Origin: Candidatus Enterousia sp. | GTDB lineage: Bacteria; Pseudomonadota; Alphaproteobacteria; Rs-D84 | Direction of reading: 5' to 3' | NCBI GenBank assembly: GCA_045586565.1 | Contig: JAZNAO010000006.1 | Coordinates: forward strand, 1,457 to 65,456 | Length of the DNA stretch: 64,000 nt | Part shown: in pieces, positions 13,174 to 55,041 of the stretch | Numbering within the stretch: position 1 is the first letter of the stretch | Layout of the letters: every line of letters begins with the position of its first letter | Translations under genes and position numbers: made by a program | The notes under the pieces: model-generated | Database searches by the model: none | What the model was told of the DNA's origin: nothing | The model's input: the letters and a program-made list of their open reading frames with translations, nothing else

Positions 13174-14532
13174 TTGCAACAACAACGCGGTAATTTTTTA
13201 ATGCAGGCTCTGTTGGCATTGGGGGTAATTTTTGCATTTATGCCATTTATTACACGCCAATTGGCGGGGCGCGATACCGATGCGCGTATGTATTCTTCAA
13301 CGCGCCAGGTTGATATTGCGCAAAGTGCCGCCCAGATTTTTATTCGTGAAAATGCGAATAATTTACCATATGAAACAACGGTTATATCGGGAAATGATTT
13401 TGCTGATTTATTGGAACCGTATGGCCTGCCATTGGGTTTTGTGCCACGCACGGCCCTGGGCCAGAATATTGCGTTGGTAATCAATAAAACGCCAGTATCT
13501 GTATCTGCGTATCTGGAATTGTCTGGTGGTAATTTATCCGCGTTGGATATTGCAGAGTTGGCGCGTCGTATTGGATTTTATGCGATGGTCACAGATGATG
13601 GTGTAAATGTTGGTATTGAATTGTCGGATGTTTATTCTGATATTGTGCGTCGTAATGAACCGAATTTGGAAAACAGTGGTTTTTTAACCGATTTAGATAT
13701 GGGTGGTTTCGTATTTAATAATGCCGGCAATTTATTCGCTGTGCGTGGCACATTTGATAGTGCTCAATTTAACAGTATGACTGTAAATGGACTGGAATCG
13801 GGGCGCAAGGCAAAAAATACAATTGGCACCATGATTGCAGACAAGGCTGTGTTTCAAAACAAGTCTGGCGAATCAGCGCTAACTTTGACACGTGGGACAT
13901 TGTATGCAAATACTGTAAATGGTCGCACGTTATCTTTGTTTGGTGATACGGGAAATCTGGCTGTGAATGATGCGTCGGCATATGAGTTGGCGATGACTGC
14001 GGGTCGAACGTCTTTTTCGGGGCCTGAAAAATGGAATGTTCGCGGGAATTTGGTATCAGATCACATCAATTTTAGTGTTGAACGATTAGATGTGTCGTCG
14101 TATATCAGTGCAACACGCGGTCAAGATGTATTTATTGATTATGATACATTGGATTACAGCACTAAATCTGGAATCGAAGTCGGAACAATATACACATCAA
14201 ATATCACTGTGCGTGATCAGACGTCCAGTGCATTAAACGATGGTATGTCTGGGGCGGTTATTTTAGATGTGCGCCCAGGCGGCACAACACTGTTGCCGGA
14301 TGCGTTGGTTGGTGATATCAACAACGACGAATTTGCAATTATATCTGATGTGTTATCAGATGACGATGCAACGATTGCGTGTAAAAAAATAATAGATGAT
14401 TTCGAAGGTGTGTATAACAAGCAGTCTTTATCGCAATATTTAATATGTCAATATGTATATTGGCAACGTCTGGAAAAGCGCATCAATATCAAACAATGTT
14501 TAATGGCGGGTGGCAGTGACTGTGTTAAATAA
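13174..14532 (+). CDS. Large prepilin-leader protein 1 (452 aa). Gln at +5 instead of Glu, as in GspK/PilX.
   Basis: TTG start gives MQQQRG|NFLMQALLALGVIFAF. Choosing the downstream ATG would remove the prepilin leader. Confidence 0.55.
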   Translation: MQQQRGNFLMQALLALGVIFAFMPFITRQLAGRDTDARMYSSTRQVDIAQSAAQIFIRENANNLPYETTVISGNDFADLLEPYGLPLGFVPRTALGQNIALVINKTPVSVSAYLELSGGNLSALDIAELARRIGFYAMVTDDGVNVGIELSDVYSDIVRRNEPNLENSGFLTDLDMGGFVFNNAGNLFAVRGTFDSAQFNSMTVNGLESGRKAKNTIGTMIADKAVFQNKSGESALTLTRGTLYANTVNGRTLSLFGDTGNLAVNDASAYELAMTAGRTSFSGPEKWNVRGNLVSDHINFSVERLDVSSYISATRGQDVFIDYDTLDYSTKSGIEVGTIYTSNITVRDQTSSALNDGMSGAVILDVRPGGTTLLPDALVGDINNDEFAIISDVLSDDDATIACKKIIDDFEGVYNKQSLSQYLICQYVYWQRLEKRINIKQCLMAGGSDCVK

Positions 14533-15751
14533 CAAGATATTTTCAGATAATTGTCATGGTGCCAGTGTTCTGGAAGTGTTGCTGGCAATGGCGATTGTTG
14601 CCATGGCGACACCTTTTGTATATCGGCAAATTGCCCAAACAAATCATACGATTCATGATATTGCAATTGCGCGCAAGATTATGTCGACGCGTGAATCCGC
14701 ACTAAACTTTATCAGAATAAATCAAGATAAATGGCCTGATAATGCCCAGATTAAATTAGATGATTCTGAATTGGATATTATATCAACAGATGCAGCAGCG
14801 GGCTTTATTGATAAATATTCTGTAAACGGCGCAGTTATAACAGATGTATATTTGGCATTTGTTACAGCAGATACAGGATTGCGGACAAATCAAATTGCCC
14901 GTCATATTGGTTCTGATGCGGCGGTGGTCAGCGATGATGGTGTTGCGTATGGTAATACTTGGGCGGTTGCAGCGCCTGATTTTATTCCTGGTGATTTAAT
15001 ATATCGTATATCGCGTGACATTGCGGGCACAGATACATCAATATATCTGCATCGTGGAACATCTGGTGATGATGGTTTAAATATTATGCAACGTGATTTA
15101 GATATGTCGAATCATCACGTTTATAATGTTGCGACTTTGAATGGAAAATCTGTTCGTGCACGAAATGCAAATACTGTGTTTGTCGACACAACAGATGTTG
15201 TTACCAACAGTGTATATTTTTCATCGGGTGCGAATTTAGAGAATGATTCATCTGTATTTGGTAATGTTCGTGTAACTGGTGATATATCTGGGTTTCGTAA
15301 TATTTATGCAGATAATTTAAACGGTCGTGGATATACGACCACAGGGCGCATTGTAACAGACCGCGCCACGATTATAGATACTATAAATGTTGCGAATGAC
15401 TTTGTGTTAAAATCTGATTCTACACGCACGGTCAGCGCATTTACAGGTATTTCGGCCAGTTCTGTTTTGACACCATACATATCTGCCGAAGAGATGATAT
15501 TTTATGATAATTTTGGATTGACTGTATCTGGTGAATTGCTGATGTCAACCTCAACACCATTAAAGTTGGGCAGTTGGTCATTCCCATCAACAAAGCCGCC
15601 TGTGTTTAAGTCTTTTAATGTGTCACGGGCAACACGTCCGTCAATGCCGTCGCGTAATGAATTTGATGCAGTAACCCGTCGTGGGTGGCAGTCAACAGAT
15701 ACACTAACCCCACCGGTCTTTCAACAAACATATATATCAACGATAAATTAA
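14510..15751 (+). CDS. Large prepilin-leader protein 2 (413 aa).
   Basis: GTG start; leader ...DNCHG|ASVLEVLLAMAIVAMA with Glu at +5. Overlaps the upstream gene by 23 nt. Confidence 0.55.
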   Translation: MAVTVLNNKIFSDNCHGASVLEVLLAMAIVAMATPFVYRQIAQTNHTIHDIAIARKIMSTRESALNFIRINQDKWPDNAQIKLDDSELDIISTDAAAGFIDKYSVNGAVITDVYLAFVTADTGLRTNQIARHIGSDAAVVSDDGVAYGNTWAVAAPDFIPGDLIYRISRDIAGTDTSIYLHRGTSGDDGLNIMQRDLDMSNHHVYNVATLNGKSVRARNANTVFVDTTDVVTNSVYFSSGANLENDSSVFGNVRVTGDISGFRNIYADNLNGRGYTTTGRIVTDRATIIDTINVANDFVLKSDSTRTVSAFTGISASSVLTPYISAEEMIFYDNFGLTVSGELLMSTSTPLKLGSWSFPSTKPPVFKSFNVSRATRPSMPSRNEFDAVTRRGWQSTDTLTPPVFQQTYISTIN

Positions 15752-15752
15752 A

Positions 15753-17069
15753 ATGACAAAACGATACGGAATTTTTTCAAAATACAATCAATCGCGTGGC
15801 GGCATGTTGATTGAATTACTGCTTAGTGTGGCATTGGCATCTGTGATAATACCATTCATTTTCCAGTATCAACAGAACGCGGTAACGCGTGCGCAAAATA
15901 TTGCGATTACAGAACAAATGTCGGATATTCAATCTGCATTGGAAAGATATATAATTGCCAATCGCGAAGATTTATTAAAAACTGTGGGTCGCACTATTAC
16001 GCGCATATCTATGTCTGATTTGGTGCCATATGGTGTCCCAGATTCTGTATTGACCGCCGGCGATGAATTGTTTCAACTGCGCATCTTAAAATCGTCAGAT
16101 TATGGTGACCAGTCTACATTACAGGGAATCGTTGTGCGAAACTCAGAAGATATATCCCCATTGCGAACACGTGAAATTGTGAATCTGTCTGGGGGCAGTA
16201 TGGGTTTTATTGATGACACTCATGCGTATGGTACATTTGGTACATGGCATACAGATACAGTTGACATGGGCATTGATATGGATAACGCGATTATTGAAAC
16301 GACACCTGTGAATCGTGACAACGCGTTGTATTTGTGGCGCATACCATCTGATGATGCGTCAGACTCGCGCATGATGACGGCGTTAAACCTGGGTGGGCAT
16401 GATATATTAAATTCATCGTTTGTAAATGCGAATCATATTGAATTTTCAGAAATGTTGTCTGCACCTGCGATTGCGACGGGCGATATTATCTTTCAAAACA
16501 GAACAACGATAGATTGGCCATTGGATGCATCCAACGCCAGTGTCGCGGGTATGTTATCTTCGGATGCCAAGAATATGGAAATAACCAATTCTTTGACGAT
16601 TGGTGACGTTGCAAAATTATCATCGTTGACGGCATCAAATTTATGGGTTGGCAATTTAACGTTGGGTGGTTTATCTTTGCACGGTGATGTAGAAGTCGCG
16701 ACCTTGGCCATAAATCAGACACTGGATATGACTGCCGGTCGTATCGAAGCAATGTTTGTATCTGTTGGTTTTGCAGGTTCTATGACGCCGCGTCTGGTTG
16801 TTTACGACAGAATCGAAGATTCAACGAATTCTGGATACTATTGGGATTTGAAATCAGAAATGGCAAGCTTTGCGGACGCAACGTTGGTTGAATTAAATCG
16901 TATGGCAACCTTGGCGTCATATTACGAAGGTGATGCGTCGACTGAATCTGGCCAGATTTTTGGTGCGGTATCTGCGAATAAAAATGCGACTGTATCTGAT
17001 TACATGAACGCGATAAATGAAATTCAAACGCGTGTTCGTGCCAAATATCGTCAGTTGAATTTGCAATAA
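15753..17069 (+). CDS. Large prepilin-leader protein 3 (438 aa).
   Basis: MTKRYGIFSKYNQSRGG|MLIELLLSVALASVII (Glu near +5). Starts 2 nt after the upstream stop. Confidence 0.6.
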   Translation: MTKRYGIFSKYNQSRGGMLIELLLSVALASVIIPFIFQYQQNAVTRAQNIAITEQMSDIQSALERYIIANREDLLKTVGRTITRISMSDLVPYGVPDSVLTAGDELFQLRILKSSDYGDQSTLQGIVVRNSEDISPLRTREIVNLSGGSMGFIDDTHAYGTFGTWHTDTVDMGIDMDNAIIETTPVNRDNALYLWRIPSDDASDSRMMTALNLGGHDILNSSFVNANHIEFSEMLSAPAIATGDIIFQNRTTIDWPLDASNASVAGMLSSDAKNMEITNSLTIGDVAKLSSLTASNLWVGNLTLGGLSLHGDVEVATLAINQTLDMTAGRIEAMFVSVGFAGSMTPRLVVYDRIEDSTNSGYYWDLKSEMASFADATLVELNRMATLASYYEGDASTESGQIFGAVSANKNATVSDYMNAINEIQTRVRAKYRQLNLQ

Positions 17070-17089: not shown

Positions 17090-17617
17090 ATGAAAATAAA
17101 ATGTGAATTTTGTAAAACAGAATATAATATAGACAGACCGCCATTGACGCCGGTTAAATGTGCGTTGTGTGGGTATACGTGGCGCGTTGCGGCACCGGCG
17201 CGCAAGAACGTATGGTTGATGTTTTTTGCGTCTGTCTGTGCATTATTGTCTGCGATAATTTTTTCTATTGCGGTTATTGCTCATCACCAGGCTATTCATG
17301 CGAACCGTGGTCCATTGATTGCATCTGTGTCTGGGGTTGAAACCGCGACTGATGATACTGGTGTTTCGCATGTAATTGTCAGTGGTTCTGTGACAAATGT
17401 ATCGGATGCGATATATGGTGTGCCTGACTTGATAATTGTTGCGACGGACGATAATGGGAATGTTTTATCGCGCCAGAAATTTATGCCATCGGCCACATTA
17501 CTTGATTCTGGGGCGGTTGTGAATTTTAAACACACACTGGCGCCATTGCCGTCTGGCGTGACTAAGATATCCGCACATTTGGGCGAAATGGAAATACCAT
17601 CGGGGGAAGAACAATGA
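17090..17617 (+). CDS. Zinc-ribbon plus transmembrane protein (DUF3426-like).
   Basis: N-terminal CEFCKTEYN...CALCGYTW zinc ribbon, a transmembrane segment, then a periplasmic domain. Confidence 0.5.
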   Translation: MKIKCEFCKTEYNIDRPPLTPVKCALCGYTWRVAAPARKNVWLMFFASVCALLSAIIFSIAVIAHHQAIHANRGPLIASVSGVETATDDTGVSHVIVSGSVTNVSDAIYGVPDLIIVATDDNGNVLSRQKFMPSATLLDSGAVVNFKHTLAPLPSGVTKISAHLGEMEIPSGEEQ

Positions 17618-18072
17618 AAAAATTTATATTTGCATTGATTGGTTTGGCTTTATCTGCACCGTCATTTGCGGCAGACACGCCTGCGCCCGCGCGCATCAGT
17701 ATTTTTTCCACCAGCACTGATTGGCAGGCAGTTACTGGTCTGCGTCTGAACGAATATAATGGCACGTTTATTCCAGACAAGAAATTGGTTGGTCGTGGTC
17801 TGGTTTTGTATTACCTGGATGGGTTTCCGTGTTATGGGTTGGGGTATGGTGTTCGCGCGTGGGTTGGCCCAGACTTTAATCATGAACATTTGCATATTGC
17901 GTGTGTTGCGGCACCCACAGAAATTAAGTTTGCATACCGCAACGCCACCCGTGATGCAGACCAGGCGACAACCACAGGAATTTTGACATGTCCGGTTGAA
18001 GGCGACGGTCGTGAATTGACAATCCGTTTGTCTGATTGTACGGTTGGCCCTGATTGGGATGAATACAGATAA
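17614..18072 (+). CDS. Hypothetical secreted protein.
   Basis: Signal peptide MKKFIFALIGLALSAPSFAA. ATGA overlap with the upstream gene. Confidence 0.45.
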   Translation: MKKFIFALIGLALSAPSFAADTPAPARISIFSTSTDWQAVTGLRLNEYNGTFIPDKKLVGRGLVLYYLDGFPCYGLGYGVRAWVGPDFNHEHLHIACVAAPTEIKFAYRNATRDADQATTTGILTCPVEGDGRELTIRLSDCTVGPDWDEYR

Positions 18073-19043: not shown

Positions 19044-19117
19044 CATTTTCCCCATTTTTCCCTTTTCAAAGTGCTTTGTTTGTGTTAAAATAAAGTAACT
19101 AATAATGGAGTAAGGGG

Positions 19118-22100
19118 ATGTCATTTCTCAAAAATACAGTAAGTTTATTGGCGGTTTTCTGCGTTGTTCCGGCGGCTTTTGGTGCCACGGCGCGCCCCAG
19201 TGTTTTAAACACTGCGACGGCGGTTTCGGCAACTGGTGCGGTTCGTCGTGTGGCGATGCCAACGATGACATCGTATATCACTGGCTCGGCGGGTGGTGTT
19301 ACAAACAACAATAATGGCAACTCTGGTTCCAGCAACTTATTAGACAGCATTGAATGCATCGATGCATACACCGAATGTATCAAATCCGAAGATGTGTGCG
19401 GCGAAGATTTGTCAGAATGCACAACAAACGTATTGTTCCATGGCAAAATGCCCCAGTGTGTAAGCACCCTGGCCCAATGTGAACCGGATGGGGTTGATGC
19501 ATTATTTGGCACAAAGAATGTAACCGATTTGTCGTTCTATGATTCAAATAATTCTGCGGAATATGATGCCGAAGATGGTGAGGTTATTCGTTACACATAC
19601 CCAACAGACGGCAGTGTTCTGGGGCAAATGATTATATCTGCGGCGATTGAAAATCAGTATGATACACAAACATGCGTGAAACGTTATATGTCATGCTTGA
19701 ATAAAGACAGTGTTTGTGGTGCAGACTTTGAATTATGTACCGACGAACGTGAATTTAAAAAGCAGGCATTGTTCTGTGATTCAACCCTGGCCCGTTGCCA
19801 GGCAGACGGTGTTCGCGAATTATTCGGGGTTTCAAAATGGTCGCCACATAAAATGGGTGCGGATGGCAAAATCGAAGGTTCTTCCCGTGTTGGTGTGGCA
19901 ATCAAAGACGGTGCAGATTTGGCGGCGTTGAACGCGGTTTCTACCTGTTACAAGGTTGTTGAACAGTGTTTCTTGGGCGCATGTTCGGCCAATCCGTTGC
20001 GTTGTTTGGCGGGGTCGAATTTATCGACATTGACGGCGGCAAATGATATTGCGGCGGACGGTATCACAATCACATTGTCAAATGACAGTGCGCCATCAAC
20101 CCCAACAGACGTAAATCGTTATCTGCGCACATCGTGCCAGGATACAATTGGTGCAAATAAATTCTGTCACATGACATTCTTGGGCAAAAATCCAAGTAAG
20201 AAAGACTTGGCGGATGTAGATGTCCAATCAGAAGTCTTTGACGATGCAATCAGCGAACGTAAAAAATACGTTGAATCAAAAATCCAAGATTTGATGACAC
20301 AGTTCGATAAACGTGCCAAGGATAAATGTGTTGAAACAATTCGTTCATGCGCAATGCGTTCCTGTGGCGAAGGTGTCGGTTCTGTATGTTATTCATCTGT
20401 ATATGGCGCGAATGGCGGAAATACAATTGCGGGTCCGGCCACACGTCCAGATATCAAAACGGCATGTGAATCTGTTGTAAATACCGATGTGAATTGCCAA
20501 TATGCATATTCAACTGTTATAGATAATGGTGTGTATTCATACAATTACATCCAAAATTCTGTATTTGATACATTATTCCCAGAATATGCTGCCGACAAAA
20601 CAAACAATGATCCAATCGGTGTAATCGGGTCGTTAAATTCGTCCCTGTCGACCAGTTATAATGCCGCTGCTCTGGCGCAAATGAAGAAGCAATGTCAATC
20701 TGTCGCGACCAGCTGTGTTAAATCAATGTGTGGCACGGATTACCAGAATTGCTATCGCAATCGAACAGATATCTTGTCTGATTTGACCAATACGGATAAT
20801 GCAAAGTTTGATACGTCAATGAACAAGGTTGGTGGTGTTCTGGATTATACAATTGTATTGGGATTGTGCATGAACACGGTTAAAAACGCCGATGTATGTG
20901 ATGAACACCTGAAAATCCAAAAGGCCAAATTAGATTTGGAAAAGACAACGGAAAATGTATGGGGAACACAATCGTCTGTCCGTGATGGCTGGATTGATGC
21001 TGGTGGTGCCAAGAAGTTTGAAGAAGGGATGGTTCATTCCAAAGACGAAAATGGTGCCGATTTATGCACAAATGCTGCAGGGGACCAAGGTGTTTGCTAT
21101 GACGTTGATGCCAATGGTGATGTTTTTAATAAACCTGTGATGATATCTGCAGACCTGTATAAAACGAACCAGGCCACAACATCATTATTCCGTGAATTGT
21201 TGGTTGATTTAGAATACGAAGCCCAGGCGAAGTATAACGCCAAATTGACGAAACAACAGAATATGTGTCTGGCGGCAAATTCTGGTGGTGTTGTTGGCGC
21301 TGGCGATATGGGTTCAACATTCATGTGGGCAAAATTGAAAAGGGGCAAGGTTCCGGCCGATTATTCAATGAATGGTTTAACCAGTGACCAAATTGTCCCA
21401 AGTAATGAATTGTATGGTTCATTCTGCCGTGTGCGTGTGACACTGCAATCCACAGACCCAACCGTATCTGAATGGTTAAACAGTACCGAAGGTCAGAAAT
21501 ATGCAACGCGTTATTTTGCGGCGGGTGATGCATTTACATGCGGTTCATGGATACCTGTTGGCGATGAAGGAACATGCCATGACGATACCGCCGCGGGCAT
21601 CAGAAGATGCAAAGGTGGCTCAGGATTACGTGGCCTGGCGCAAAAGGTTGGCGAAGCCACATATACATACGACAAACAGAAATCCGACACAATTCTGCAA
21701 ACAATGTTGCCAGTGGTTGGATTGCTGGGTGGTGGTATTGGTGGTGCATATCTGGGCGCCGGCATCGAAGACGGTTCTGTATTCGGCGGTCTGACGGGTA
21801 AAAAGAGCACAAAATCAGACAGCAAGACAGCAAAGACTGCAAACGATAGATGTTCGAATGCCATCGATATGGCCAAAACAAAATTAGCGGAAGCAAATCC
21901 TAGCCTGGAAAGTGTAAGAAGTTTAGCCAAAACAGCGGCTGATGAATTAGAAGACATGGACAAGGTTGTGTACAAAAACCTGGAGTATTGGCCAGATGGT
22001 ATGACAACTACTGTTACTGAAACTATTTCTAAAGGAGAAGGGGAGCAAACTAAATATTATTGTGGCGGGACAGAAGTCAATACGAAAGTACCAGCACGGT

Positions 22101-22432
22101 GCGTTGGTGATAAGTTATTGGCCGATGCAAGAACAGAAATCACACCCATTTTGAATAGACTAGAAGGTTATTGTGAATCTGCGGTCGAAGACGAAGATGC
22201 CAATGCTAAAAAGAAAAAGGGTGCCGCCGCCGCGGGGGCTGTGACAACCGGTGTGATCAGCAGTGTTCTGACATGGGGCGTCACACGCAGCATCATTGAT
22301 GCACAACGCACCAAAGAACAACAGGCCGCAATTGATGAATTCATGGATTCATTGGGTTCAAAAATCAATTGTGTTGTCGGTGGGGATTCCATTGCGGTAT
22401 ATGGCGACACATTGGTCACCAGTATGGAATAA
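19118..22432 (+). CDS. Giant secreted Cys-rich repeat protein (1104 aa) with a C-terminal Gly-rich hydrophobic anchor.
   Basis: Signal peptide. Tandem ~50-aa Cys modules (C-x6-C-x6-CG-x4-EC ... C-x5-C-E/Q-xDGV-x-LFG, seen twice near the N-terminus). Further C-x6-C-x3-CG modules. C-terminal GGGIGGAYLGAGIEDG and AAAAGAVTTGVISSVLTWGV segments. Confidence 0.65.
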   Translation: MSFLKNTVSLLAVFCVVPAAFGATARPSVLNTATAVSATGAVRRVAMPTMTSYITGSAGGVTNNNNGNSGSSNLLDSIECIDAYTECIKSEDVCGEDLSECTTNVLFHGKMPQCVSTLAQCEPDGVDALFGTKNVTDLSFYDSNNSAEYDAEDGEVIRYTYPTDGSVLGQMIISAAIENQYDTQTCVKRYMSCLNKDSVCGADFELCTDEREFKKQALFCDSTLARCQADGVRELFGVSKWSPHKMGADGKIEGSSRVGVAIKDGADLAALNAVSTCYKVVEQCFLGACSANPLRCLAGSNLSTLTAANDIAADGITITLSNDSAPSTPTDVNRYLRTSCQDTIGANKFCHMTFLGKNPSKKDLADVDVQSEVFDDAISERKKYVESKIQDLMTQFDKRAKDKCVETIRSCAMRSCGEGVGSVCYSSVYGANGGNTIAGPATRPDIKTACESVVNTDVNCQYAYSTVIDNGVYSYNYIQNSVFDTLFPEYAADKTNNDPIGVIGSLNSSLSTSYNAAALAQMKKQCQSVATSCVKSMCGTDYQNCYRNRTDILSDLTNTDNAKFDTSMNKVGGVLDYTIVLGLCMNTVKNADVCDEHLKIQKAKLDLEKTTENVWGTQSSVRDGWIDAGGAKKFEEGMVHSKDENGADLCTNAAGDQGVCYDVDANGDVFNKPVMISADLYKTNQATTSLFRELLVDLEYEAQAKYNAKLTKQQNMCLAANSGGVVGAGDMGSTFMWAKLKRGKVPADYSMNGLTSDQIVPSNELYGSFCRVRVTLQSTDPTVSEWLNSTEGQKYATRYFAAGDAFTCGSWIPVGDEGTCHDDTAAGIRRCKGGSGLRGLAQKVGEATYTYDKQKSDTILQTMLPVVGLLGGGIGGAYLGAGIEDGSVFGGLTGKKSTKSDSKTAKTANDRCSNAIDMAKTKLAEANPSLESVRSLAKTAADELEDMDKVVYKNLEYWPDGMTTTVTETISKGEGEQTKYYCGGTEVNTKVPARCVGDKLLADARTEITPILNRLEGYCESAVEDEDANAKKKKGAAAAGAVTTGVISSVLTWGVTRSIIDAQRTKEQQAAIDEFMDSLGSKINCVVGGDSIAVYGDTLVTSME

Positions 22433-22460
22433 TTAAAAAAAGTTTTGCATAAACCTCCTA

Positions 22461-22488
22461 AAATCCCCCACCCGGGGGGATTTTTTAT
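22461..22488 (+). terminator. Intrinsic terminator after the giant Cys-rich gene.
   Basis: AAATCCCCCACCCGGGGGGATTTTTT. Confidence 0.75.
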
Positions 22489-22569
22489 CGCAGTAGCCGT
22501 CGCGGAATAATCTCCTTTGCTGGCGAAGGGGTGTCAGGCAGTGAAGGGGTAGTGGGAATTTAACAATAC

Positions 22570-22635
22570 CGCGATAAATAAAAGTTTAGTCTTGCATAAC
22601 ATTTTACAAGAATCTGTGATTCTTGTCATTGCGCG
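22570..22635 (-). repeat. Repeat element copy A (~65 bp).
   Basis: CGCGATAAATAAAAGTTTAG ... TTTTACAAGAATCtgtgGATTCTTGTCAT TGCGCG. Nearly identical to copy E in reverse complement. Confidence 0.7.
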
Positions 22636-25595: not shown

Positions 25596-25620
25596 ACGGC
25601 ATGACGCCGTTTTTTTATTT
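25596..25620. terminator. Bidirectional terminator between uvrD and the convergent membrane-protein operon.
   Basis: AACGGCATGACGCCGTT followed by a T tract. Confidence 0.6.
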
Positions 25621-26910
25621 GCGTGATTCTTTGATAATTTTATACCATTCTTTGACAGACTTTTTTGCATCGCCCCATAATCTGGTCACGTCTGATTTTA
25701 ATGATGTGCCCATTGAAGAATCTATTGCGCCACCTATGTCTGTTGCAATTTGTGATGCATGACTGGCCAGATACCATGTCAACGCCATCACAAACATAGA
25801 TGTCCATATATTTGGATTATCAAATTCTGGCACCAACCCAGGATTTGTTAAATCCATAACGCCCGATAATAATGCTGTGCAAATTGCAATAACAATTGAC
25901 AATGTGACAAAGTGCAGGGCTGCATTGATAAAACGCATAATTTGTGCCTGTAAAGATTCTGTGGAAAATAACTTTACAAAACCATTATAAATATCACCAA
26001 CAATTCCCTTGTATGATGTTTGGCCCACGCACTCTGCAATTGCAGTAAAAGGCAACATTATAATCCCCAAGAATAAATCTGCAATTACACCAAATGCAAC
26101 AAATGCAAATTTCCATGCCAGATATATAAACCCACCAATCATTGCGCCACCACACAGGAATGAAAACATACTGCGTCCGATACCGTATGCCATCCATTTC
26201 CATCCAACCGCCACCGCCGTATAACAAAATCCGGATAATCGTGTTGGAATACACATAATGTTTGCTGCGGCTTCTGGGGGCAATAAATTAGATTCAGATA
26301 TATGTTCTGTGGCATACATATGAATCGCTGTGCATGTGTCTGGGATTTGTGCGCCTGCAACACTGGCTACTGCATTTAAAATTAAATCAGATATCAGTGA
26401 TGCAACGCTTAAAATTGGACTCATCACCATCATAAATGTTTCTGCCGGTCCGACATTTAACACCACCACCCACATTGCGGTTATTGCGCCTTTTTTCAGC
26501 ATTGATTTTATTGTGTCTTTAGTGTCGGCTTTGCCGGTGATTATATTATATGCCTCTAACCCCATCCAGAATGCATACATCAATATGATAAATATGATTG
26601 TAAACCGAACCAATGACGAATCCAGTATATGCCCGATATGTGAAAACGCATTCATAAATGCCAGACCGATTTTCGCTTCTATTGGGACAAACCCCACATC
26701 AAAATTTTGTATTGTATTTCCGTGAAATTTTTCAAAATCCCCAGACAGTTGCCCTATAAACAATTCTCGGTTTGCTTCCGTGGTCCATACCCCATTATCA
26801 CCGATATCTGGTAACGGTACATTTGTTTCGCCAAATGCCGGCACCGCCATAACCGTTGCGATTGCAACAAGTGCTAAATACCTACAAAGATGTTTAAATA
26901 CCTTTATCAT
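25615..26910 (-). CDS. VirB6/TrbL-like polytopic membrane protein, paralog 4 of the operon.
   Basis: Signal peptide and at least five transmembrane segments. Shared C...GW.M block with the neighbouring paralogs. ATGA overlap with the upstream gene. Confidence 0.45.
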   Translation of the reverse strand: MIKVFKHLCRYLALVAIATVMAVPAFGETNVPLPDIGDNGVWTTEANRELFIGQLSGDFEKFHGNTIQNFDVGFVPIEAKIGLAFMNAFSHIGHILDSSLVRFTIIFIILMYAFWMGLEAYNIITGKADTKDTIKSMLKKGAITAMWVVVLNVGPAETFMMVMSPILSVASLISDLILNAVASVAGAQIPDTCTAIHMYATEHISESNLLPPEAAANIMCIPTRLSGFCYTAVAVGWKWMAYGIGRSMFSFLCGGAMIGGFIYLAWKFAFVAFGVIADLFLGIIMLPFTAIAECVGQTSYKGIVGDIYNGFVKLFSTESLQAQIMRFINAALHFVTLSIVIAICTALLSGVMDLTNPGLVPEFDNPNIWTSMFVMALTWYLASHASQIATDIGGAIDSSMGTSLKSDVTRLWGDAKKSVKEWYKIIKESRK

Positions 26911-28352
26911 TTATTTGTCACCACATCTGCAATTGTATCTGTAATTTTTAATGGCGCACGCCCAGTTGTTTTTATCAAATCACCTGTCCATTTACCAAAA
27001 TCAAACAATTCTGGACTGTCTTTGCCCAACATCTTGTCAATCTTTGGGCTGATTGCATAAAAGTACAAGAAGAACAAACATGCCATCATCAACAAGAAAT
27101 CCCATCCATCATCCATAAAATTAAATGCGTTTGGATACTTTCTTTCAACTTCTGCCTTGCGTGCGGTAAAGCAATTTTTAAATTTATCTTTGTCCATTTC
27201 GCCATCTACCAAAGCAACCTGTTCACATGTTGTAAACACATTCATTACAGATAATGTTTGTGCGTCTGGATTTTCGGCATGCATACCCATCATTGGTGGT
27301 AATATTGCCGTATATCCATCATTTGGTCCTGGGAAAAACGCATCTGCGGTGTATGATACCGTCGCGTATATCACCAATGTTTTCAATGTAATGGCGATAA
27401 TTCTTACTGCTGATGTAACCAGCATATTTATTGCATTCCCCAATAACCCATTTGCCTTGGCCCAGACGCCTTCGAACGCATATGATGCCAATAACAGTGG
27501 CAAAAATATAACCAAGAATACCAGTTTAAATACCACAGATAATATTTGAAAAAACAAATCAAAACCAATCAGCAAGAACATCAATACCAATGCCAATCCT
27601 GCGACCCACGTAAACGCACCGCCACCCATACCCATCCAAGAATAATTCATCAGTGAAAATCCGCCTGCGGCACCTGCCAGCATTACACTGTTTATATTTC
27701 CAACAACGCACATAAATGGTTGCAGTATTGGATTTAAAATATCATTTTCGTTTTCAGAATATTTATCATTTCTCAAATTGCATTGTGCAGAATCACTGAT
27801 ACCTGTGGCGGCCATTGATAATTCTGCCCCAAGATACATAACTGGTGTAATTGTTAGTTGTGATACTGTCTTTAAAGCGCCTGTGCCGCCCATCCCCAGC
27901 ATTCCCATTACTGCACCAACAATCAGCACACGTGCACCCTGTTTCCAGATTTTGTCGACCAGCGCATTTATTTCCAATTTCTTTTCTGTGTCGTCTAACT
28001 TCATGGCTTCTTTTGCAGAATTTAACATATGCTGAACAATACTGATGACAATAAACAACCCAAATCCCAACACCATCAATATCCAAATATTGTTTACCAT
28101 TAAATTCCAGAATTTGTCGGCTGCATTCCCGATGACTGTGAACAAATCAGAAATATATCTGCACATAAAACATCCGTTGACGTTTGAAATATTCCCGTCA
28201 GTTGCCCCCACGGCCGTTAAAAAGTTATCCAAACTGGTATACGTAATGGATGTACCGCCCAAAGATGACGACAAATACCATATCCCCAGCCCTAATGCGG
28301 CGATGATAAAGAATGCTTTGATGGCCATAACAATCAATTTTGCCTTTAACAT
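26907..28352 (-). CDS. VirB6/TrbL-like polytopic membrane protein, paralog 3.
   Basis: N-terminal GCFMCRYISDLF motif homologous to SCWSCPIFDRLF and SCWTCQMFSDIM in the other paralogs. Multiple transmembrane segments. Confidence 0.45.
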   Translation of the reverse strand: MLKAKLIVMAIKAFFIIAALGLGIWYLSSSLGGTSITYTSLDNFLTAVGATDGNISNVNGCFMCRYISDLFTVIGNAADKFWNLMVNNIWILMVLGFGLFIVISIVQHMLNSAKEAMKLDDTEKKLEINALVDKIWKQGARVLIVGAVMGMLGMGGTGALKTVSQLTITPVMYLGAELSMAATGISDSAQCNLRNDKYSENENDILNPILQPFMCVVGNINSVMLAGAAGGFSLMNYSWMGMGGGAFTWVAGLALVLMFLLIGFDLFFQILSVVFKLVFLVIFLPLLLASYAFEGVWAKANGLLGNAINMLVTSAVRIIAITLKTLVIYATVSYTADAFFPGPNDGYTAILPPMMGMHAENPDAQTLSVMNVFTTCEQVALVDGEMDKDKFKNCFTARKAEVERKYPNAFNFMDDGWDFLLMMACLFFLYFYAISPKIDKMLGKDSPELFDFGKWTGDLIKTTGRAPLKITDTIADVVTNK

Positions 28353-29542
28353 TACTTACCTTCCTTGTCGTCGTCTTTTTTTAGCACTATTTTTGCGGTA
28401 TTTGTAACCGCGCCCACCGCATTCTTGGTCAGCCCCATAATTGCATCTGCGACCTGTTCGCCATATTCTGTTTTTTCTGCGACACCAAATGCGTCCAGTA
28501 TCATTTTTGTAATCGCTTTGGATTGGTCGTAAATATAATTTAAAACGTAAATTAAAATACTGCAACTCATCAACGTCATGGATTCCAAATTTTCTGTATT
28601 CAAATCTGCGTTGTATAATTCACCTGTTGTAATTGCATTCATCAAATCGTTTACAGATACATCCGATGCACTAAAGAACTTGGCGATTACAACCATAATA
28701 ATCGTATACGTTATAACGATTGATCCCAAAGACACAATCGAATTTACCAAATTCTTTATTTGATTTATCCCGACCCCAGATCCCAATTTTTTTATCCATT
28801 CTGGTACATGTTCTGCGCCAGTGAACGCCATTGTCATCAATGATAGTGGGAAAAAGAATGCAAAGAACGCCATTGCAACAATTGCGTCTGCAAATCTGCA
28901 ACAATATCGGAAAAATAATTTTATAAATCCCCATGACAGATAAAATCCAATAAAGAACAACATGATATGCTTTAACAAACTGCCAATTCCGGTCAAAGCC
29001 TTCCATGAAAAAGCGTTATCTACGACCGCAATCCCCAGTTTTATATATGATTGGAATTGTGTGATTGTCGTCTGCATCAACAATAATATTTTATTACGCA
29101 GTTCTGGCCTAAAAAAACTATCATCTGTCATTTCTTTTGGGGTATATGGAACTTTTTCTTCGACCTGAACTGTATCCAGTTGGATTATGTTTTGTGTATA
29201 AACCGTTGTAACAGATGCAATGGGTTCGAATATTAGTGTAGATACCATTCGTGGTAATGTGACACCCGCCCCCAGCAGTCCGACAACAACAATCGAATTT
29301 AAAAATACTTTTTGTATGGATTTCTTAAAGAATAGGTCGTCCATCCCTTTTTGCATATTTTTCATCCATGCATTTGACACATACAATGCAAATAATGCAA
29401 TCAACAACATCAGACATAATTTTGCAAAATTATCATATATATACGCGGCTGCCAAAGACACAATCTGAAACAGACGGTCAAATATTGGACAACTCCAACA
29501 TTGGATTGAATTGTCTATCAAAGATGATGTCCATTCGTTCAT
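28352..29542 (-). CDS. VirB6/TrbL-like polytopic membrane protein, paralog 2.
   Basis: SCWSCPIFDRLFQIV and LPRMVSTLIFEPI blocks shared with the divergent paralog. Multiple transmembrane segments. Confidence 0.45.
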   Translation of the reverse strand: MNEWTSSLIDNSIQCWSCPIFDRLFQIVSLAAAYIYDNFAKLCLMLLIALFALYVSNAWMKNMQKGMDDLFFKKSIQKVFLNSIVVVGLLGAGVTLPRMVSTLIFEPIASVTTVYTQNIIQLDTVQVEEKVPYTPKEMTDDSFFRPELRNKILLLMQTTITQFQSYIKLGIAVVDNAFSWKALTGIGSLLKHIMLFFIGFYLSWGFIKLFFRYCCRFADAIVAMAFFAFFFPLSLMTMAFTGAEHVPEWIKKLGSGVGINQIKNLVNSIVSLGSIVITYTIIMVVIAKFFSASDVSVNDLMNAITTGELYNADLNTENLESMTLMSCSILIYVLNYIYDQSKAITKMILDAFGVAEKTEYGEQVADAIMGLTKNAVGAVTNTAKIVLKKDDDKEGK

Positions 29543-30801
29543 TTCTTTTTAAACCATCCCAATGCGCTATTAAATGCGCTGGTTGTTTGTTTGATACCTT
29601 TCCACATTGTTGTGGCGTCACCATTGACCTGTCTATACAGTTTATCCATACCGCCACCGATATAATTTTCCAGTTGCTTTTGTGTCATCTGATAGATTTT
29701 ATACATCAAAAAGAATGTCAATATTGCCGACATCCATGTGACAGAATGTGTTCCAAATCCAATTGCATTTACAACTTCTGGTGTGGGCAGATTGCTGTAT
29801 GCGCTGCCCCCGGCGGCAGAAACAAATACCGAAGAATTCCATCGGAACAGTGCTTTGATTACCGCCAAATTGATGCACAGTATAAACGCACATGCAATCA
29901 TAGTGATAATCAATTGTTGTAACGCCTTGGTAATACCGCTGAATGCGGGCCAAACATCGAACCATTTATCACTGGACTTGGTCACGTATGTCAGCACATA
30001 GAACGGATATAAAATCAGTTGTACACCGAAATTAAATATTCCCTGTATAATCAGCATTGCCATAAACAGGTTACTGCCGATAAATGTGATTATTAGAATA
30101 ATCCCGGTCAATACATTCATTAAATCTTCGCCACCATGTGGAATCAATGTCAACAGCCCGCGCAATCCACGTGTCAAGAAATCAAATCCGCGTTTTATAA
30201 TCTGGTTGTTTGCGTGTGATAAATCAGATATTGGTTGCACTAAAAATTCGCATGATTCCGGATTCAACCACGCTTTTTCTGTAATGCTGGTTGGGCAATC
30301 TATTTTTTGTGCGTTGGTTCCTGTTTCGTTGATTGTCTGTGTTATTTCATGAGTATATACCGACCCCAGTTTTAAAAAAGGATTTACCAACCACTGCGTC
30401 AAGAACATCGGTGACAGTTGTAATAAAAATACAATTGCGATAAATGCGCGAAATCCAGGTTTTAGAACTTTTGTTGCGATGTCCATTGGACCGGCTTTGC
30501 CATCAGCGATTTCACCGCCCCCCGATATGTTAAAGAACGCCAGCACTTCTTTCGGGGCAAACATTTTTAACAGTCCGATTACAATAGTTATAACGAAAAA
30601 TAATATAACCAATCCTTGAATAATTCCGTTGCCCACAAAAAATTCATATCCGCCCGTGGCAACCATCATCAGCGCATCCAATATCATCGGCACAAAAGGT
30701 GCCAAATTTAATGCGTCAACAATATCTGCATGTGCGGCCCCTGGTGCGCAGAAAACCGCGACAAAACATAAGGCTGATAATATTTTTTTTAGTATATTCA
30801 T
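29539..30801 (-). CDS. VirB6/TrbL-like polytopic membrane protein, paralog 1 (first gene of the operon).
   Basis: Signal peptide MNILKKILSALCFVAVFCAPGAAHA, at least six transmembrane segments. ATGA overlap with the downstream gene. Confidence 0.4.
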   Translation of the reverse strand: MNILKKILSALCFVAVFCAPGAAHADIVDALNLAPFVPMILDALMMVATGGYEFFVGNGIIQGLVILFFVITIVIGLLKMFAPKEVLAFFNISGGGEIADGKAGPMDIATKVLKPGFRAFIAIVFLLQLSPMFLTQWLVNPFLKLGSVYTHEITQTINETGTNAQKIDCPTSITEKAWLNPESCEFLVQPISDLSHANNQIIKRGFDFLTRGLRGLLTLIPHGGEDLMNVLTGIILIITFIGSNLFMAMLIIQGIFNFGVQLILYPFYVLTYVTKSSDKWFDVWPAFSGITKALQQLIITMIACAFILCINLAVIKALFRWNSSVFVSAAGGSAYSNLPTPEVVNAIGFGTHSVTWMSAILTFFLMYKIYQMTQKQLENYIGGGMDKLYRQVNGDATTMWKGIKQTTSAFNSALGWFKKK

Positions 30802-30868
30802 TCTCTCTTTTTATTTTTATCTTTTCAATTATATCACATTTAATGCAAAATATGGTATACTTAAAAAC

Positions 30869-33759: not shown

Positions 33760-33760
33760 A

Positions 33761-34060: not shown

Positions 34061-34061
34061 A

Positions 34062-55040: not shown

Positions 55041-55041
55041 A

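What the first reader, a model, noticed from the sequence alone, without database searches (positions are those of the whole stretch)
19118..22432. 1104-aa secreted protein built from novel tandem Cys-rich modules with a C-terminal Gly-rich anchor
The N-terminal region repeats a ~50-aa module twice with conserved spacing: CIDAYTECIKSEDVCGEDLSECT...CVSTLAQCEPDGVDALFG and CVKRYMSCLNKDSVCGADFELCT...CDSTLARCQADGVRELFG. Further C-x6-C-x3-CG-x5-C units follow (KCVETIRSCAMRSCGEGVGSVCY; QCQSVATSCVKSMCGTDYQNCY). The C-terminus has GGGIGGAYLGAGIEDG and a hydrophobic AAAAGAVTTGVISSVLTWGV stretch that could anchor the protein in a membrane. I cannot assign the module to a known family. Any link to the Cys-rich paralog loci rests on the shared repeat elements. 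The gene is flanked downstream by repeat-element copies A and B and by a leader-like fragment.
Basis: seen in the sequence. Interest (0 to 1): 0.65.

Follow-up and report, generated by a model that had tools for sequence, protein, structure and literature searches.

The report
Cysteine-rich envelope protein with swappable domain
This intact gene encodes a previously undescribed, disulfide-rich exported protein found only in tiny-genome gut Alphaproteobacteria (Candidatus Enterousia and relatives), and it carries a strain-specific domain, flanked by two glycine-zipper segments, that closely related strains exchange as a unit, which makes it a candidate for partner recognition or for evading phages or antibodies.

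Summary
Window 19118-22432 (+) is an intact 1104-aa ORF with a Sec signal peptide, its own promoter-like site, an RBS and a terminator. It has 43 Cys. Two ~60-aa modules are a true duplication (HHalign E 2e-17); three further C-x6-C-x4-CG-x5/6-C units are degenerate.

No Pfam, NCBIfam, PHROGs, PDB-sequence, PDB-fold or viral-fold match was found. The family is narrow: 266 clusters at 50% identity among 1.84 billion representatives, and 241 species genomes, all Ca. Enterousia / order Rs-D84 gut MAGs with <1 Mb genomes.

New findings:
- The "Gly-rich anchor" is two regular glycine zippers bracketing a folded, hypervariable domain (12% mean identity against 45-80% elsewhere).
- That domain is exchanged as a cassette between strains whose flanking DNA is 97-100% identical.
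- Cys counts are even in the cassette in 166 of 178 homologs. N-domain plus tail is even in 164 of 178. This implies disulfides throughout.
- The zippers are too weakly hydrophobic to act as inner-membrane stop-transfer helices.

Best reading (inferred): a polymorphic envelope receptor or adhesin whose cassette is displayed through a glycine-zipper hairpin. The proposed link to the Cys-rich paralog loci is not supported. Function remains untested.

The parts
19063..19091 (+). Promoter-like site (TTTTCA-17 nt-TAAAAT, with TG before the -10) in the 74-nt gap after rluD
   Evidence: consensus match only, function not shown
19107..19110 (+). Shine-Dalgarno-like GGAG, 7 nt before the ATG
   Evidence: sequence upstream of 19118
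19118..22432 (+). Complete CDS, 1104 aa plus stop codon
   Evidence: intact, full-length homologs, conserved termini
19118..19183 (+). Sec signal peptide (aa 1-22; K5, hydrophobic core, PAAFG|A; PAAxA|V in homologs). Not a lipobox; C15 is not conserved
   Evidence: read from the sequence, no dedicated predictor available
19184..19345 (+). Mature N-terminal disordered region (aa 23-76) with the conserved linear motifs TARPS (R26 invariant in 64 sequences) and RRxPT, then a low-complexity S/T/G/N linker
   Evidence: pLDDT < 50; motif found only in this family
19346..19534 (+). Cys module 1 (aa 77-139): helix - loop - helix with C80, C87, C94, C101, C114, C121
19664..19837 (+). Cys module 2 (aa 183-240): duplicate of module 1 (C186...C227). 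It is the only copy present in the distant relatives
   Evidence: E 2.3e-17
19928..20917 (+). Three degenerate helical Cys modules (aa 271-600), each C-x6-C-x4-C-x6/7-C plus a C-x9-C pair. Includes the most conserved stretch of the protein (521-600, 80% mean identity)
20918..21142 (+). Second variable patch, VR1 (aa 601-675): low-confidence loop plus a beta-hairpin with C650/C660. Swapped in some near-identical pairs
21143..21622 (+). Long helix plus beta-rich domain (aa 676-835; C717, C770, C808). Contains a 22-aa insertion (aa 813-834, with C820 and C831) found only in this protein and P0002
21623..21700 (+). Helix leading into zipper 1 (aa 836-861)
21701..21799 (+). Glycine zipper 1 (aa 862-894): charge-free 862-880 in all 64 sequences, G868-x3-G872-x3-G876-x3-G880, W863 at its start
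21800..22207 (+). Polymorphic cassette (aa 895-1030): helix hairpin, small beta-sheet and helix, with 4 Cys (C912, C982, C995, C1019) and Lys-rich collars at both ends
   Evidence: (pLDDT about 90)
22208..22285 (+). Glycine zipper 2 (aa 1031-1056): KKKK, then charge-free 1035-1056 with small-residue pairs every fourth position, ending in Y/W1053
22286..22432 (+). Conserved tail (aa 1057-1104): a helix and three short strands, a single invariant C1085, C-terminus ...TSME
22460..22489 (+). Rho-independent terminator hairpin (TCCCCC-ACCC-GGGGGG plus a T-run), symmetric enough to act on both strands

Best explanation
The gene encodes a core, lineage-specific cell-envelope protein of the Rs-D84 / Candidatus Enterousia clade.

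Shown:
- It is an intact, conserved gene with a Sec signal peptide.
- About 800 residues form a conserved, mostly alpha-helical scaffold in which Cys residues lie 7 apart on helices, followed by a beta-rich domain.
- Near the C-terminus, two conserved glycine zippers of 19-22 residues bracket a folded domain of 40-330 residues. That domain is hypervariable and is replaced as a whole cassette between strains that are otherwise about 99% identical.
- Cysteine numbers are even in the cassette, and even in N-domain plus tail.

Inferred:
- The whole polypeptide crosses the inner membrane and is oxidatively folded.
- The lone tail cysteine (C1085) pairs with the odd cysteine of the N-domain. The chain therefore forms a stalk (helix 836-861 plus zipper 1 going up, zipper 2 plus helix 1057-1082 coming down) with the cassette at its tip.
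- The two zippers sit in a membrane as a helical hairpin, most likely in the outer membrane and probably as an oligomer. The N-domain and tail stay in the periplasm and the cassette is exposed on the cell surface.
- There the cassette acts as a strain-specific recognition module (adhesin or receptor for a partner cell or host surface), or as the exposed target that phages or antibodies select against. This would explain the balanced cassette polymorphism.
For: Gene integrity and conservation.

Restricted distribution: 266 clusters in 1.84e9 representatives and 241 species genomes, all Enterousia / uncultured gut Alphaproteobacteria, including a closed 0.96-Mb chromosome. The gene sits among housekeeping genes in all lineages examined.

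Disulfide signature: cassette Cys count even in 166/178 although it ranges from 2 to 10. The N-domain is odd (35 in 111 sequences, 37 in 32), the tail has 1 Cys in 170, and the sum is even in 164/178. The lineage-specific 22-aa insertion adds exactly 2 Cys. Unrelated secreted Cys-rich proteins of the same genome have 16, 26 and 24 Cys.

Zippers are not translocon stop-transfer helices: dG_app median +4.6 and +3.3 kcal/mol, 0 of 64 at or below 1.0, against -3 to +1.8 for FtsW, MraY and ComEC helices of the same window. They are nevertheless charge-free for 19-22 residues, have perfect i+4 small-residue stripes, and carry aromatic and basic caps.

Cassette polymorphism: 12% mean identity against 45-80% elsewhere. 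Pairs with N-domains 96-99% identical have cassettes 17-39% identical and of different length. At the DNA level, L088 and L089 are 97-100% identical for 6.6 kb, 26-46% identical for about 650 nt, then 94-100% identical again. There are 37 cassette types among 117 sequences; two types co-exist within one N-domain lineage, and single types occur in up to 12 lineages. The cassette is confidently folded (pLDDT about 90).

Lifestyle: Rs-D84 is proposed to be an obligate partner-dependent symbiont or parasite relying on uncharacterised membrane proteins (PMC12306168).

Precedents from the literature: 2TM glycine-zipper helices that sit in the outer membrane as oligomers (SlyB, YfgH; bioRxiv 10.64898/2025.12.22.696046). 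Cys-rich outer-membrane proteins whose variable region sets partner specificity (TraN; PMC9246713).
Against: No localisation, expression or binding data exist.

AlphaFold2 gives pLDDT < 50 for both zippers and pTM of only 0.43, so the hairpin or stalk arrangement is not modelled. I could not read coordinates to check Cys-Cys distances.

Lys clusters lie on the cassette side of both zippers. Under the positive-inside rule this would favour a cytoplasmic cassette if the zippers were inner-membrane helices.

A second variable patch lies inside the supposedly periplasmic N-domain (VR1). A strictly 'only the cassette is exposed' model does not explain it.

Alpha-helical outer-membrane spans are rare, and no Gly-zipper family HMM matches.

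Codon analysis was possible for one pair only: omega 0.51 in the cassette against 0.16 in the N-domain. That is elevated but below 1.

I could not verify that the genome encodes DsbA/DsbB-type oxidoreductases.
Confidence: 0.4

Rival explanations
1. Inner-membrane protein with classical topology. The 830-aa N-domain is periplasmic, zipper 1 and zipper 2 are two inner-membrane helices, the cassette is a cytoplasmic loop and the tail returns to the periplasm. The protein would be a periplasmic scaffold or sensor anchored in the cytoplasmic membrane.
For: There are two charge-free segments of 19-22 residues with aromatic and basic caps. Lys clusters (GKK.., KKKK) lie on the cassette side of both, as the positive-inside rule predicts.
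Against: The cassette Cys count is even in 166/178 while varying from 2 to 10 and lacking CxxC motifs. This fits disulfides rather than a reducing cytoplasm or Zn sites. dG_app is +3 to +5 kcal/mol, and 0 of 64 family members reach the range of real TM helices from the same genome. A cytoplasmic loop that is swapped as discrete alleles between 99%-identical strains has no obvious rationale.
Confidence: 0.12
2. Secreted membrane-inserting toxin or effector. The glycine zippers are a pore-forming or membrane-damaging hairpin that inserts into a target (partner, competitor or host) membrane, and the polymorphic cassette is a receptor-binding or toxic module, as in alpha-pore-forming toxins or polymorphic toxins.
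For: Glycine zippers are typical of channel-forming and membrane-damaging proteins (my own knowledge of Kim et al. 2005 PNAS, cited as ref. 45 in the preprint read; a glycine-zipper T7SS toxin, PMC12955049, was listed but not read). The best, non-significant, profile hits in the PDB are the stalk/foot regions of YaxA and XaxA (E 0.1-0.24). A conserved body with a variable C-terminal region resembles the logic of polymorphic toxins.
Against: The hits are not significant, and Foldseek finds nothing. No conserved downstream immunity-like gene exists: the downstream neighbours are dnaQ, PBP1A, a 441-aa gene or MerR in different genomes. The cassette is followed by a conserved zipper and tail whose single Cys appears to pair with the N-domain. 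The gene is single-copy in the window and core, lies among housekeeping genes, and has no adjacent secretion system.
Confidence: 0.15
3. Pilus- or pseudopilus-associated adhesin, a functional analogue of PilY1/PilC. The protein works with the three large pilin-like proteins encoded upstream, either exported by them or presented on them.
For: Three proteins of 413-452 aa with prepilin-like N-termini (G|NFLMQ, G|ASVLE, G|GMLIE plus a hydrophobic helix) lie upstream on the same strand. The block pilin-like x3, Zn-ribbon, 152-aa secreted protein, rluD, this gene is kept in about 64 of 80 Enterousia loci. The size and the Sec signal are like those of PilY1 (my own knowledge).
Against: The linkage is absent in about 14 of 80 loci and in all three distant relatives examined, where the gene follows ftsQ-ftsA or mgsA. 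A housekeeping gene (rluD) intervenes, and the gene has its own promoter-like site and terminator. There is no PilY1, vWA or beta-propeller match. The pilin assignment itself is weak: only a GspI N-terminal hit at E 0.0075.
Confidence: 0.13
4. Purely periplasmic structural protein (an envelope scaffold or tether). The glycine-rich segments are flexible or oligomerisation elements, and the 'cassette' is simply a poorly constrained spacer.
For: The N-domain is long, helical, disulfide-stapled and has no enzyme-like motifs (0.5% His). AlphaFold2 does not model the zippers as confident helices. The genome is tiny and lacks many standard envelope components (PMC12306168).
Against: The cassette is confidently folded and keeps paired cysteines in every type. 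Variation occurs as discrete alleles with sharp breakpoints in a 97-100% identical background, and the same type recurs in many lineages. That is not what drift in a spacer produces.
Confidence: 0.15

Closest known systems
2TM glycine-zipper outer-membrane lipoproteins (SlyB, YfgH, OsmB, YiaD; Pfam 'glycine zipper 2TM' / Rick_17kDa_Anti)
   Same: Both have GxxxG-type stripes of small residues on weakly hydrophobic, charge-free helical segments that sit in a membrane, and two such segments per protein. SlyB oligomerises in the outer membrane (bioRxiv 10.64898/2025.12.22.696046).
   Different: No HMM or PDB-sequence match. This protein is not a lipoprotein. Its two zippers are separated by a folded domain of 40-330 aa instead of a tight turn. 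They are attached to an 800-aa Cys-rich body.
TraN, the mating-pair-stabilisation protein of F-like plasmids
   Same: Both are exported, Cys-rich envelope proteins (TraN has 22 conserved Cys, all plausibly disulfide-bonded). In both, a conserved core carries a variable region, which in TraN exists as discrete structural variants that determine which partner surface protein is bound (PMC9246713).
   Different: No sequence or fold similarity. TraN is mostly beta and its variable 'tip' is N-terminal. TraN is plasmid-borne and part of a T4SS operon, whereas this gene is chromosomal and core. Partner binding is not shown here.
Twin-CxnC helical hairpins (CHCH-type domains) and other disulfide-stapled helical modules
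   Same: Cys residues at a fixed spacing on two consecutive helices (here C-x6-C, i and i+7) are suited to stapling an antiparallel helix pair (my own knowledge; pattern).
   Different: The spacing is x6 rather than x9 or x3. Each module has an extra Cys pair in the connecting loop. The setting is the bacterial periplasm. No homology was detected, and disulfide connectivity was not determined.
PilY1/PilC-type pilus-associated adhesins
   Same: Both are about 1100-aa Sec-exported proteins encoded downstream of pilin-like genes (PilY1 properties from my own knowledge).
   Different: There is no vWA or beta-propeller domain and no family match. The synteny holds only within Enterousia.
YaxA/XaxA alpha-pore-forming toxin subunits
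   Same: Both have a long helical stalk ending in a hydrophobic, membrane-inserting helical hairpin. These are the best, sub-threshold, PDB profile hits to residues ~874-1022 (E 0.1-0.24).
   Different: The hits are not significant and there is no Foldseek support. The cysteine-rich body and the folded domain between the two hydrophobic segments have no counterpart.

Membership tests
Glycine zipper 2TM / Gly-zipper_Omp / Rick_17kDa_Anti (SlyB-like) | Match to the family HMM, or to the SlyB sequence in the PDB | tested here: not met
   No such Pfam hit at E <= 1 for the whole protein or at E <= 10 for residues 852-1104 alone. SlyB is absent from the profile-versus-PDB hits at E <= 10.
Glycine zipper 2TM / SlyB-like | Lipoprotein signal (lipobox with an invariant Cys at +1) | tested here: not met
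   The signal peptide ends PAAFG|A. C15 is preceded by V-F and is replaced by S or A in homologs.
Glycine zipper (motif level) | Repeated (G/A/S)xxxG stripe on a charge-free helical segment | tested here: met
   G868/G872/G876/G880, and small-residue pairs at 1036/37, 1040/41, 1044/45, 1048/49 and 1052. There are no charged residues in 862-880 or 1035-1056 in any of 64 sequences.
TraN (PF06986) | Family HMM match, and T4SS/tra operon context | tested here: not met
   No Pfam hit. The neighbours are rluD, dnaQ and uvrD.
PilY1/PilC pilus tip adhesin | C-terminal beta-propeller (Neisseria_PilC/PilY1 domain), with or without an N-terminal vWA domain | tested here: not met
   No Pfam hit. The AlphaFold2 model is helical with a small beta domain and no propeller.
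Type IV pilin / pseudopilin | Class III signal: G|(F/M)xxxE followed by a hydrophobic helix at the N-terminus | tested here: not met
   The N-terminus is a class I Sec signal. The motif is present in the three upstream proteins, not in this one.
Type V autotransporter / other self-exporting outer-membrane proteins | C-terminal beta-barrel translocator domain | tested here: not met
   No Pfam hit. The C-terminal 250 residues are predicted as helices plus three short strands.
Polymorphic toxin systems (CdiA, Rhs and similar) | Variable extreme C-terminal toxin domain, followed by a cognate immunity gene | tested here: not met
   The variable region is internal and is followed by a conserved zipper and tail. 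The downstream genes differ between genomes, with no conserved small ORF.
PE/PPE C-terminal domain (the name one source gives to homolog P0118) | Match to PE/PPE family models | tested here: not met
   No Pfam or NCBIfam hit for this protein. The source name probably reflects Gly/Ala-rich composition.
Programmed antigenic variation with silent cassettes (pilE/pilS type) | Silent donor copies of the variable region elsewhere in the genome | tested here: inconclusive
   There are no cassette-like sequences outside the gene in 1.7 Mb of DNA from the window plus 89 loci. However, only about +/-10 kb around the gene was available per genome.
Disulfide-bonded exported protein | Paired cysteines, and a periplasmic oxidoreductase system in the genome | tested here: inconclusive
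   The parity statistics strongly support pairing.

The most novel reading that the evidence does not exclude
An alpha-helical glycine-zipper hairpin spans the outer membrane, probably as an oligomer, and works as a modular 'socket'. It displays an exchangeable, disulfide-bonded recognition domain on the cell surface, while an 800-residue disulfide-stapled helical body stays in the periplasm. Closely related strains of these partner-dependent, <1 Mb-genome gut bacteria swap the displayed domain by homologous recombination within the conserved zipper-coding sequences, possibly through natural transformation, and so change partner or host specificity or escape phages and IgA. This would be a new mode of outer-membrane protein display and a new polymorphic recognition system.
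Probability: 0.25. Interest if true: 0.8.

Novelty: new variant of a known kind. Interest (0 to 1): 0.55.

Why it matters
Candidatus Enterousia and the wider Rs-D84 order are widespread in human, ruminant, rabbit and poultry guts. Their genomes are under 1 Mb, without respiration or standard transporters, and they are thought to depend on unknown partner cells (PMC12306168). How they attach to or exchange with partners is unknown.

This gene takes up about 0.35% of such a genome. It is conserved across the order and is the kind of 'hypothetical membrane protein' that paper invokes.

The recombining cassette provides three things:
- a concrete hypothesis for strain-level specificity;
- a natural strain-typing locus for metagenomics;
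- an experimentally tractable bait, since the cassette domains fold confidently and are small, for finding the partner, phage or antibody that drives the polymorphism.

Structurally, a folded domain inserted between two glycine zippers, and C-x6-C stapled helical modules, are architectures without a described counterpart.

Tried and rejected
1. Known-family assignment. Pfam on the whole protein and on four sub-regions at E <= 10, NCBIfam, PHROGs, phmmer and a profile against PDB sequences, and Foldseek against the PDB (two models) and BFVD. Nothing was significant. The sub-threshold hits (Ran-binding, T7SS_SACOL2603, TraC/VirB5, YaxA/XaxA, TCR CXC, flagellins, tape-measure proteins) reflect long helices or composition. 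PADLOC was not run.

3. Shared N-terminal sorting motif. The mature N-terminus ARPSVLN..AVSA resembles that of a 426-aa exported protein (47453-48733). An HMM of the motif region scored that family at only E 5.3 among 3383 ORFs. Rejected.

4. Independent occurrence of the C-terminal module. Short hits from the exhaustive search are fragments or chimeric gene calls, for example one with a RecA-like start. Rejected.

5. Homology with the Cys-rich paralogs, the pilin-like proteins or the 152-aa neighbour. Blastp E > 3. Rejected.

6. Functional operon with the pilin-like cluster. Synteny breaks in about 14 of 80 loci and in the distant relatives. Downgraded to a rival explanation.

7. VirB6/TrbL identity of the five tandem membrane proteins downstream. 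No Pfam support even at E <= 5.

8. Silent donor cassettes. None found in the available flanks.

9. Positive selection by dN/dS. Only one sufficiently close pair was available, with omega 0.51 against 0.16, which is not decisive.

10. Pseudogene. Rejected: the ORF is intact and conserved over its full length.

Full report
OBSERVATION. The window contains an uninterrupted ORF at 19118-22432 (+) of 1104 aa. It has 43 cysteines (3.9%) in a strikingly regular pattern. Two copies of C-x6-C-x6-C-x6-C-x12-C-x6-C lie at residues 80-121 and 186-227. Three copies of C-x6-C-x4-C-x6/7-C lie at 277-296, 404-424 and 526-545, each followed about 25-45 residues later by a C-x9-C pair (340/350, 450/460, 584/594). 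Then come C650-x9-C660, C717, C770, C808, a lineage-specific pair C820/C831, and C912, C982, C995, C1019 and C1085. The finding's quoted sequences are all present. Its 'x3' spacing should read x4.

Profile-profile comparison of sub-alignments shows that modules 1 and 2 are a true internal duplication (probability 98.9%, E 2.3e-17 over 66 residues). Modules 3-5 match them only weakly, although in register on the Cys motif (E 0.004-0.04).

The gene has a promoter-like site at 19063-19091, a GGAG 7 nt before the ATG, and a clean terminator hairpin at 22464-22479 followed by a T-run. There is no second copy in the window.

IS IT A REAL, CONSERVED GENE? Yes. A word-indexed search of 5.8 billion proteins returned at least 900 relatives. 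The best 120 are full-length (1030-1176 aa, 48-81% identity) and none carries a functional name. An exhaustive profile search of 1.84 billion cluster representatives found only 266 clusters, so the family is real but narrow.

In one genome per GTDB species, 241 loci encode it. The records are named Candidatus Enterousia, or uncultured Alphaproteobacteria or Rickettsiales, from human, ruminant, rabbit and chicken gut. One is a closed 958,618-bp chromosome. A distant tier at 24-30% identity, named 'Rickettsiales bacterium' MAGs, keeps the whole architecture but has only one copy of module 1/2.

All Cys from C80 to C808 are invariant among 25 homologs. C186 to C808 (apart from the 650/660 pair) and C1085 remain invariant across 64 sequences that include the distant tier.

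According to PMC12306168, Enterousia (order Rs-D84) has genomes of 0.75-1.0 Mb, with no TCA cycle, respiration, flagella or standard transporters. It is proposed to live as an obligate symbiont or parasite, using uncharacterised membrane proteins for cell-cell interaction.

The better AlphaFold2 model (64-sequence alignment; mean pLDDT 73, pTM 0.43) shows four regions:
- a disordered mature N-terminus (residues 23-72) that nevertheless holds the invariant R26 of a TARPS motif and a conserved RRxPT motif;
- a mostly helical region (77-720) in which the C-x6-C pairs lie on helices;
- a beta-rich domain (735-831);
- a C-terminal part described below.

ANATOMY OF THE C-TERMINAL PART. Column statistics over 64 sequences show that the two 'Gly-rich' stretches are regular glycine zippers. 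Residues 862-880 are free of charged residues in every sequence and carry G868/G872/G876/G880. Residues 1035-1056 are likewise charge-free and have small-residue pairs at 1036/37, 1040/41, 1044/45, 1048/49 and 1052.

W863 with K859, and Y/W1053 with K/R1057, cap the ends that face the N-domain and tail. Lys clusters (GKK.., KKKK) cap the ends that face the intervening domain. Helices 836-861 and 1057-1082 flank the zippers. The arrangement is therefore symmetrical: helix, zipper, domain, zipper, helix, conserved tail.

WHERE IS EACH SEGMENT? Two independent lines argue that the zippers are not ordinary inner-membrane helices with a cytoplasmic loop.

(i) Cysteine parity in 178 full-length homologs. 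The number of Cys between the zippers ranges from 2 to 10 but is even in 166. The N-domain count is typically odd (35 in 111 sequences, 37 in 32), the tail has exactly one Cys in 170, and the sum is even in 164. The 22-aa insertion unique to this protein and P0002 adds exactly two Cys. This is the signature of disulfide pairing in all three segments. It also suggests that the tail Cys (C1085) pairs with the odd N-domain Cys. Unrelated secreted Cys-rich proteins of the same window have 16, 26 and 24 Cys.

(ii) Translocon hydrophobicity (scale values recalled from Hessa et al. 2005). The best 19-residue windows of the zippers score +4.6 and +3.3 kcal/mol (family medians), with 0 of 64 at or below 1.0. 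Transmembrane helices of FtsW, MraY and ComEC from the same window score -3.1 to +1.8.

The simplest reading is that the entire polypeptide is exported across the inner membrane. The organism is a diderm, with Skp/OmpH and LpxD in the window. The zippers could then insert into the outer membrane, as the 2TM glycine-zipper lipoproteins SlyB and YfgH are reported to do as oligomers. They could instead mediate oligomerisation or insert into another cell's membrane.

THE DOMAIN BETWEEN THE ZIPPERS IS A RECOMBINING CASSETTE. Mean pairwise identity is 12% for residues 893-1030, against 45-80% for every other region. Its length ranges from about 40 to 330 residues.

Among 117 segmentable sequences there are pairs whose N-domains are 96-99% identical but whose zipper-cassette-zipper regions are 17-39% identical and differ in length, for example 336 versus 266 aa. 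Block-wise identity shows sharp edges. P0089 and P0099 are about 100% identical for the first ~850 and the last ~60 residues, and 0-28% identical in between.

At the DNA level their loci (L088, L089) are 97-100% identical across 6.6 kb, including four upstream genes. Identity drops to 26-46% for about 650 nt (codons ~867-1083) and returns to 94-100%.

Clustering gives 37 cassette types. Two types co-exist inside single N-domain lineages at >=95% identity (15+3 and 6+1), and single types occur in up to 12 lineages. No silent donor copies were found in 1.7 Mb of flanking DNA, so exchange between strains is the likely source. The genome encodes ComEC and a ComF-like protein.

The cassette of this protein is the most confidently modelled part of the structure (pLDDT about 90; helix hairpin, small sheet, helix). 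A second, smaller variable patch (about 575-675) is swapped in some pairs (P0020/P0086) but not in others. The single pair close enough for codon analysis gave omega 0.16 for the N-domain and 0.51 for the cassette. That is suggestive, not decisive.

GENOMIC CONTEXT. In about 64 of 80 Enterousia loci the gene follows a conserved block: dnaX(-), a small gene(-), three proteins of 413-452 aa with prepilin-like N-termini, a Zn-ribbon/FxLYD membrane protein, a 152-aa secreted protein, and rluD. In about 14 loci the block is absent; uvrD is directly upstream in several of these, and one locus carries an inversion. In distant relatives the gene follows ftsQ-ftsA or mgsA. Downstream genes vary.

The pilin linkage is therefore lineage-level synteny rather than a conserved operon. 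The gene behaves as a vertically inherited core gene, not as part of a mobile element.

The 'repeat elements' downstream are of two kinds. One is the terminator, which belongs to a family of five similar hairpins. The other is an ~85-nt copy, on the minus strand at 22565-22633, of the promoter region of the Cys-rich paralog genes at 34317 and 53535: ATGACA, then 17 nt containing the palindrome ACAAGAAT-N5-ATTCTTGT, then TAAAAT. Those proteins are unrelated to this one.

INTERPRETATION. Shown: this is an intact, conserved, clade-specific, Sec-targeted, cysteine-paired protein. It has a duplicated helical module and a glycine-zipper-bracketed domain that recombines as a cassette.

Inferred (confidence about 0.4): the zippers form a membrane-embedded hairpin, most likely in the outer membrane and oligomeric. 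The hairpin presents the cassette on the cell surface, while the N-domain and tail, disulfide-linked to each other, stay in the periplasm. The cassette is a strain-specific recognition module or the exposed target of phage or antibody selection.

The nearest functional analogy is TraN. It is a Cys-rich outer-membrane protein with a conserved core and discrete variable regions that set partner specificity (PMC9246713). There is no homology to TraN.

Rival explanations are an inner-membrane hairpin with a cytoplasmic loop, a secreted membrane-inserting toxin, a pilus-associated adhesin, and a purely periplasmic scaffold. They are listed separately with the evidence and the tests that would refute each.

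Points against the favoured model are the Lys clusters on the cassette side, the variable patch inside the N-domain, the low AlphaFold confidence for the zippers, and the complete absence of experimental data.

NOVELTY AND SCORE. No tool places the protein in a described family. The architecture (C-x6-C stapled helical modules, and a folded polymorphic domain inserted between two glycine zippers) has no described counterpart that I could find. The general kind, a polymorphic disulfide-rich envelope protein, is known, so I rate it a new variant of a known kind.

Interest is 0.55. The protein is a well-supported, previously unnoticed polymorphic locus in an enigmatic, widespread gut lineage, and it leads to clear experiments. 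Its function and location remain inferred.

Noticed in passing
window 13174-17069 (+): Three consecutive proteins of 452, 413 and 438 aa have prepilin-like N-termini (G|NFLMQ, G|ASVLE, G|GMLIE plus a hydrophobic helix) but no Pfam or NCBIfam family; the only hit is a weak GspI N-terminal match at E 0.0075. They are unusually large for pilins, and no assembly ATPase or secretin is nearby. With a Zn-ribbon/FxLYD protein (17090-17617) and a 152-aa secreted protein (17614-18072) they form a block conserved across Enterousia.
   Followed up: partly
window 25615-32159 (four genes on -, one on +): Five tandem polytopic membrane proteins of 396-486 aa are weakly paralogous to each other (blastp E 5e-5 to 8e-3) and have no Pfam or NCBIfam match. 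They recall the tandem VirB6-like paralogs of Rickettsiales, but TrbL/VirB6 models do not hit even at E <= 5.
   Followed up: partly
window 33980-35102, 53200-55040, 55060-56376 (+): Three secreted Cys-rich paralogs (mature start AAGYTCE; 16, 26 and 24 Cys) share a promoter containing an operator-like palindrome and a conserved 5' leader of about 300 nt with hairpin-like blocks. One paralog has an Ephrin_rec_like domain (E 1.5e-11). No Rfam family matches the leader.
   Followed up: partly
window 22565-22633 (-): An orphan copy of that paralog promoter (ATGACA-17-TAAAAT, the best promoter-like match in the region) points at the 3' end of the big gene and runs into the bidirectional terminator at 22460-22489. 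It could give a transcript of about 140 nt, or it could be a relic.
   Followed up: partly
window 9159-9188, 22460-22489, 33758-33787, 35108-35137, 55041-55070: A family of near-identical Rho-independent terminator hairpins (AAAATCCCCC-N4-GGGGGATTTTTT) is reused after several genes.
   Followed up: no
window 5600-7546 (-) and 48727-49449 (+): ComEC and a ComF-like protein (double zinc ribbon plus phosphoribosyltransferase) are retained in a genome of under 1 Mb. Natural transformation is a plausible route for the cassette exchange seen in the big gene.
   Followed up: no
window 47453-48733 (+): A 426-aa exported protein lies directly after mraY-ftsW-murG. It has Pro/Val-rich linkers and a C-terminus that looks OmpA-like by eye but is below Pfam thresholds. 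Its mature N-terminus resembles that of the big protein, but not significantly (HMM E 5.3).
   Followed up: yes
window 21554-21619 (+) (aa 813-834): A 22-aa insertion, predicted as a beta-hairpin with two extra cysteines (C820, C831), is present only in this protein and its closest relative P0002. It keeps the cysteine count even.
   Followed up: partly
L040 (CAVGNU010000002.1): A public record titled 'Bacteroides fragilis isolate ... cleanbin' carries a complete Enterousia-type locus (dnaX, the pilin-like block, rluD and the big gene). This is most likely a mis-binned or mislabelled contig.
   Followed up: no
L085 and L086 (distant relatives): In the 'Rickettsiales bacterium' relatives the gene lies directly after ftsQ and a 590-aa gene with FtsA and ribulose-phosphate 3-epimerase hits, which is an unusual fusion or gene call.
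   Followed up: no
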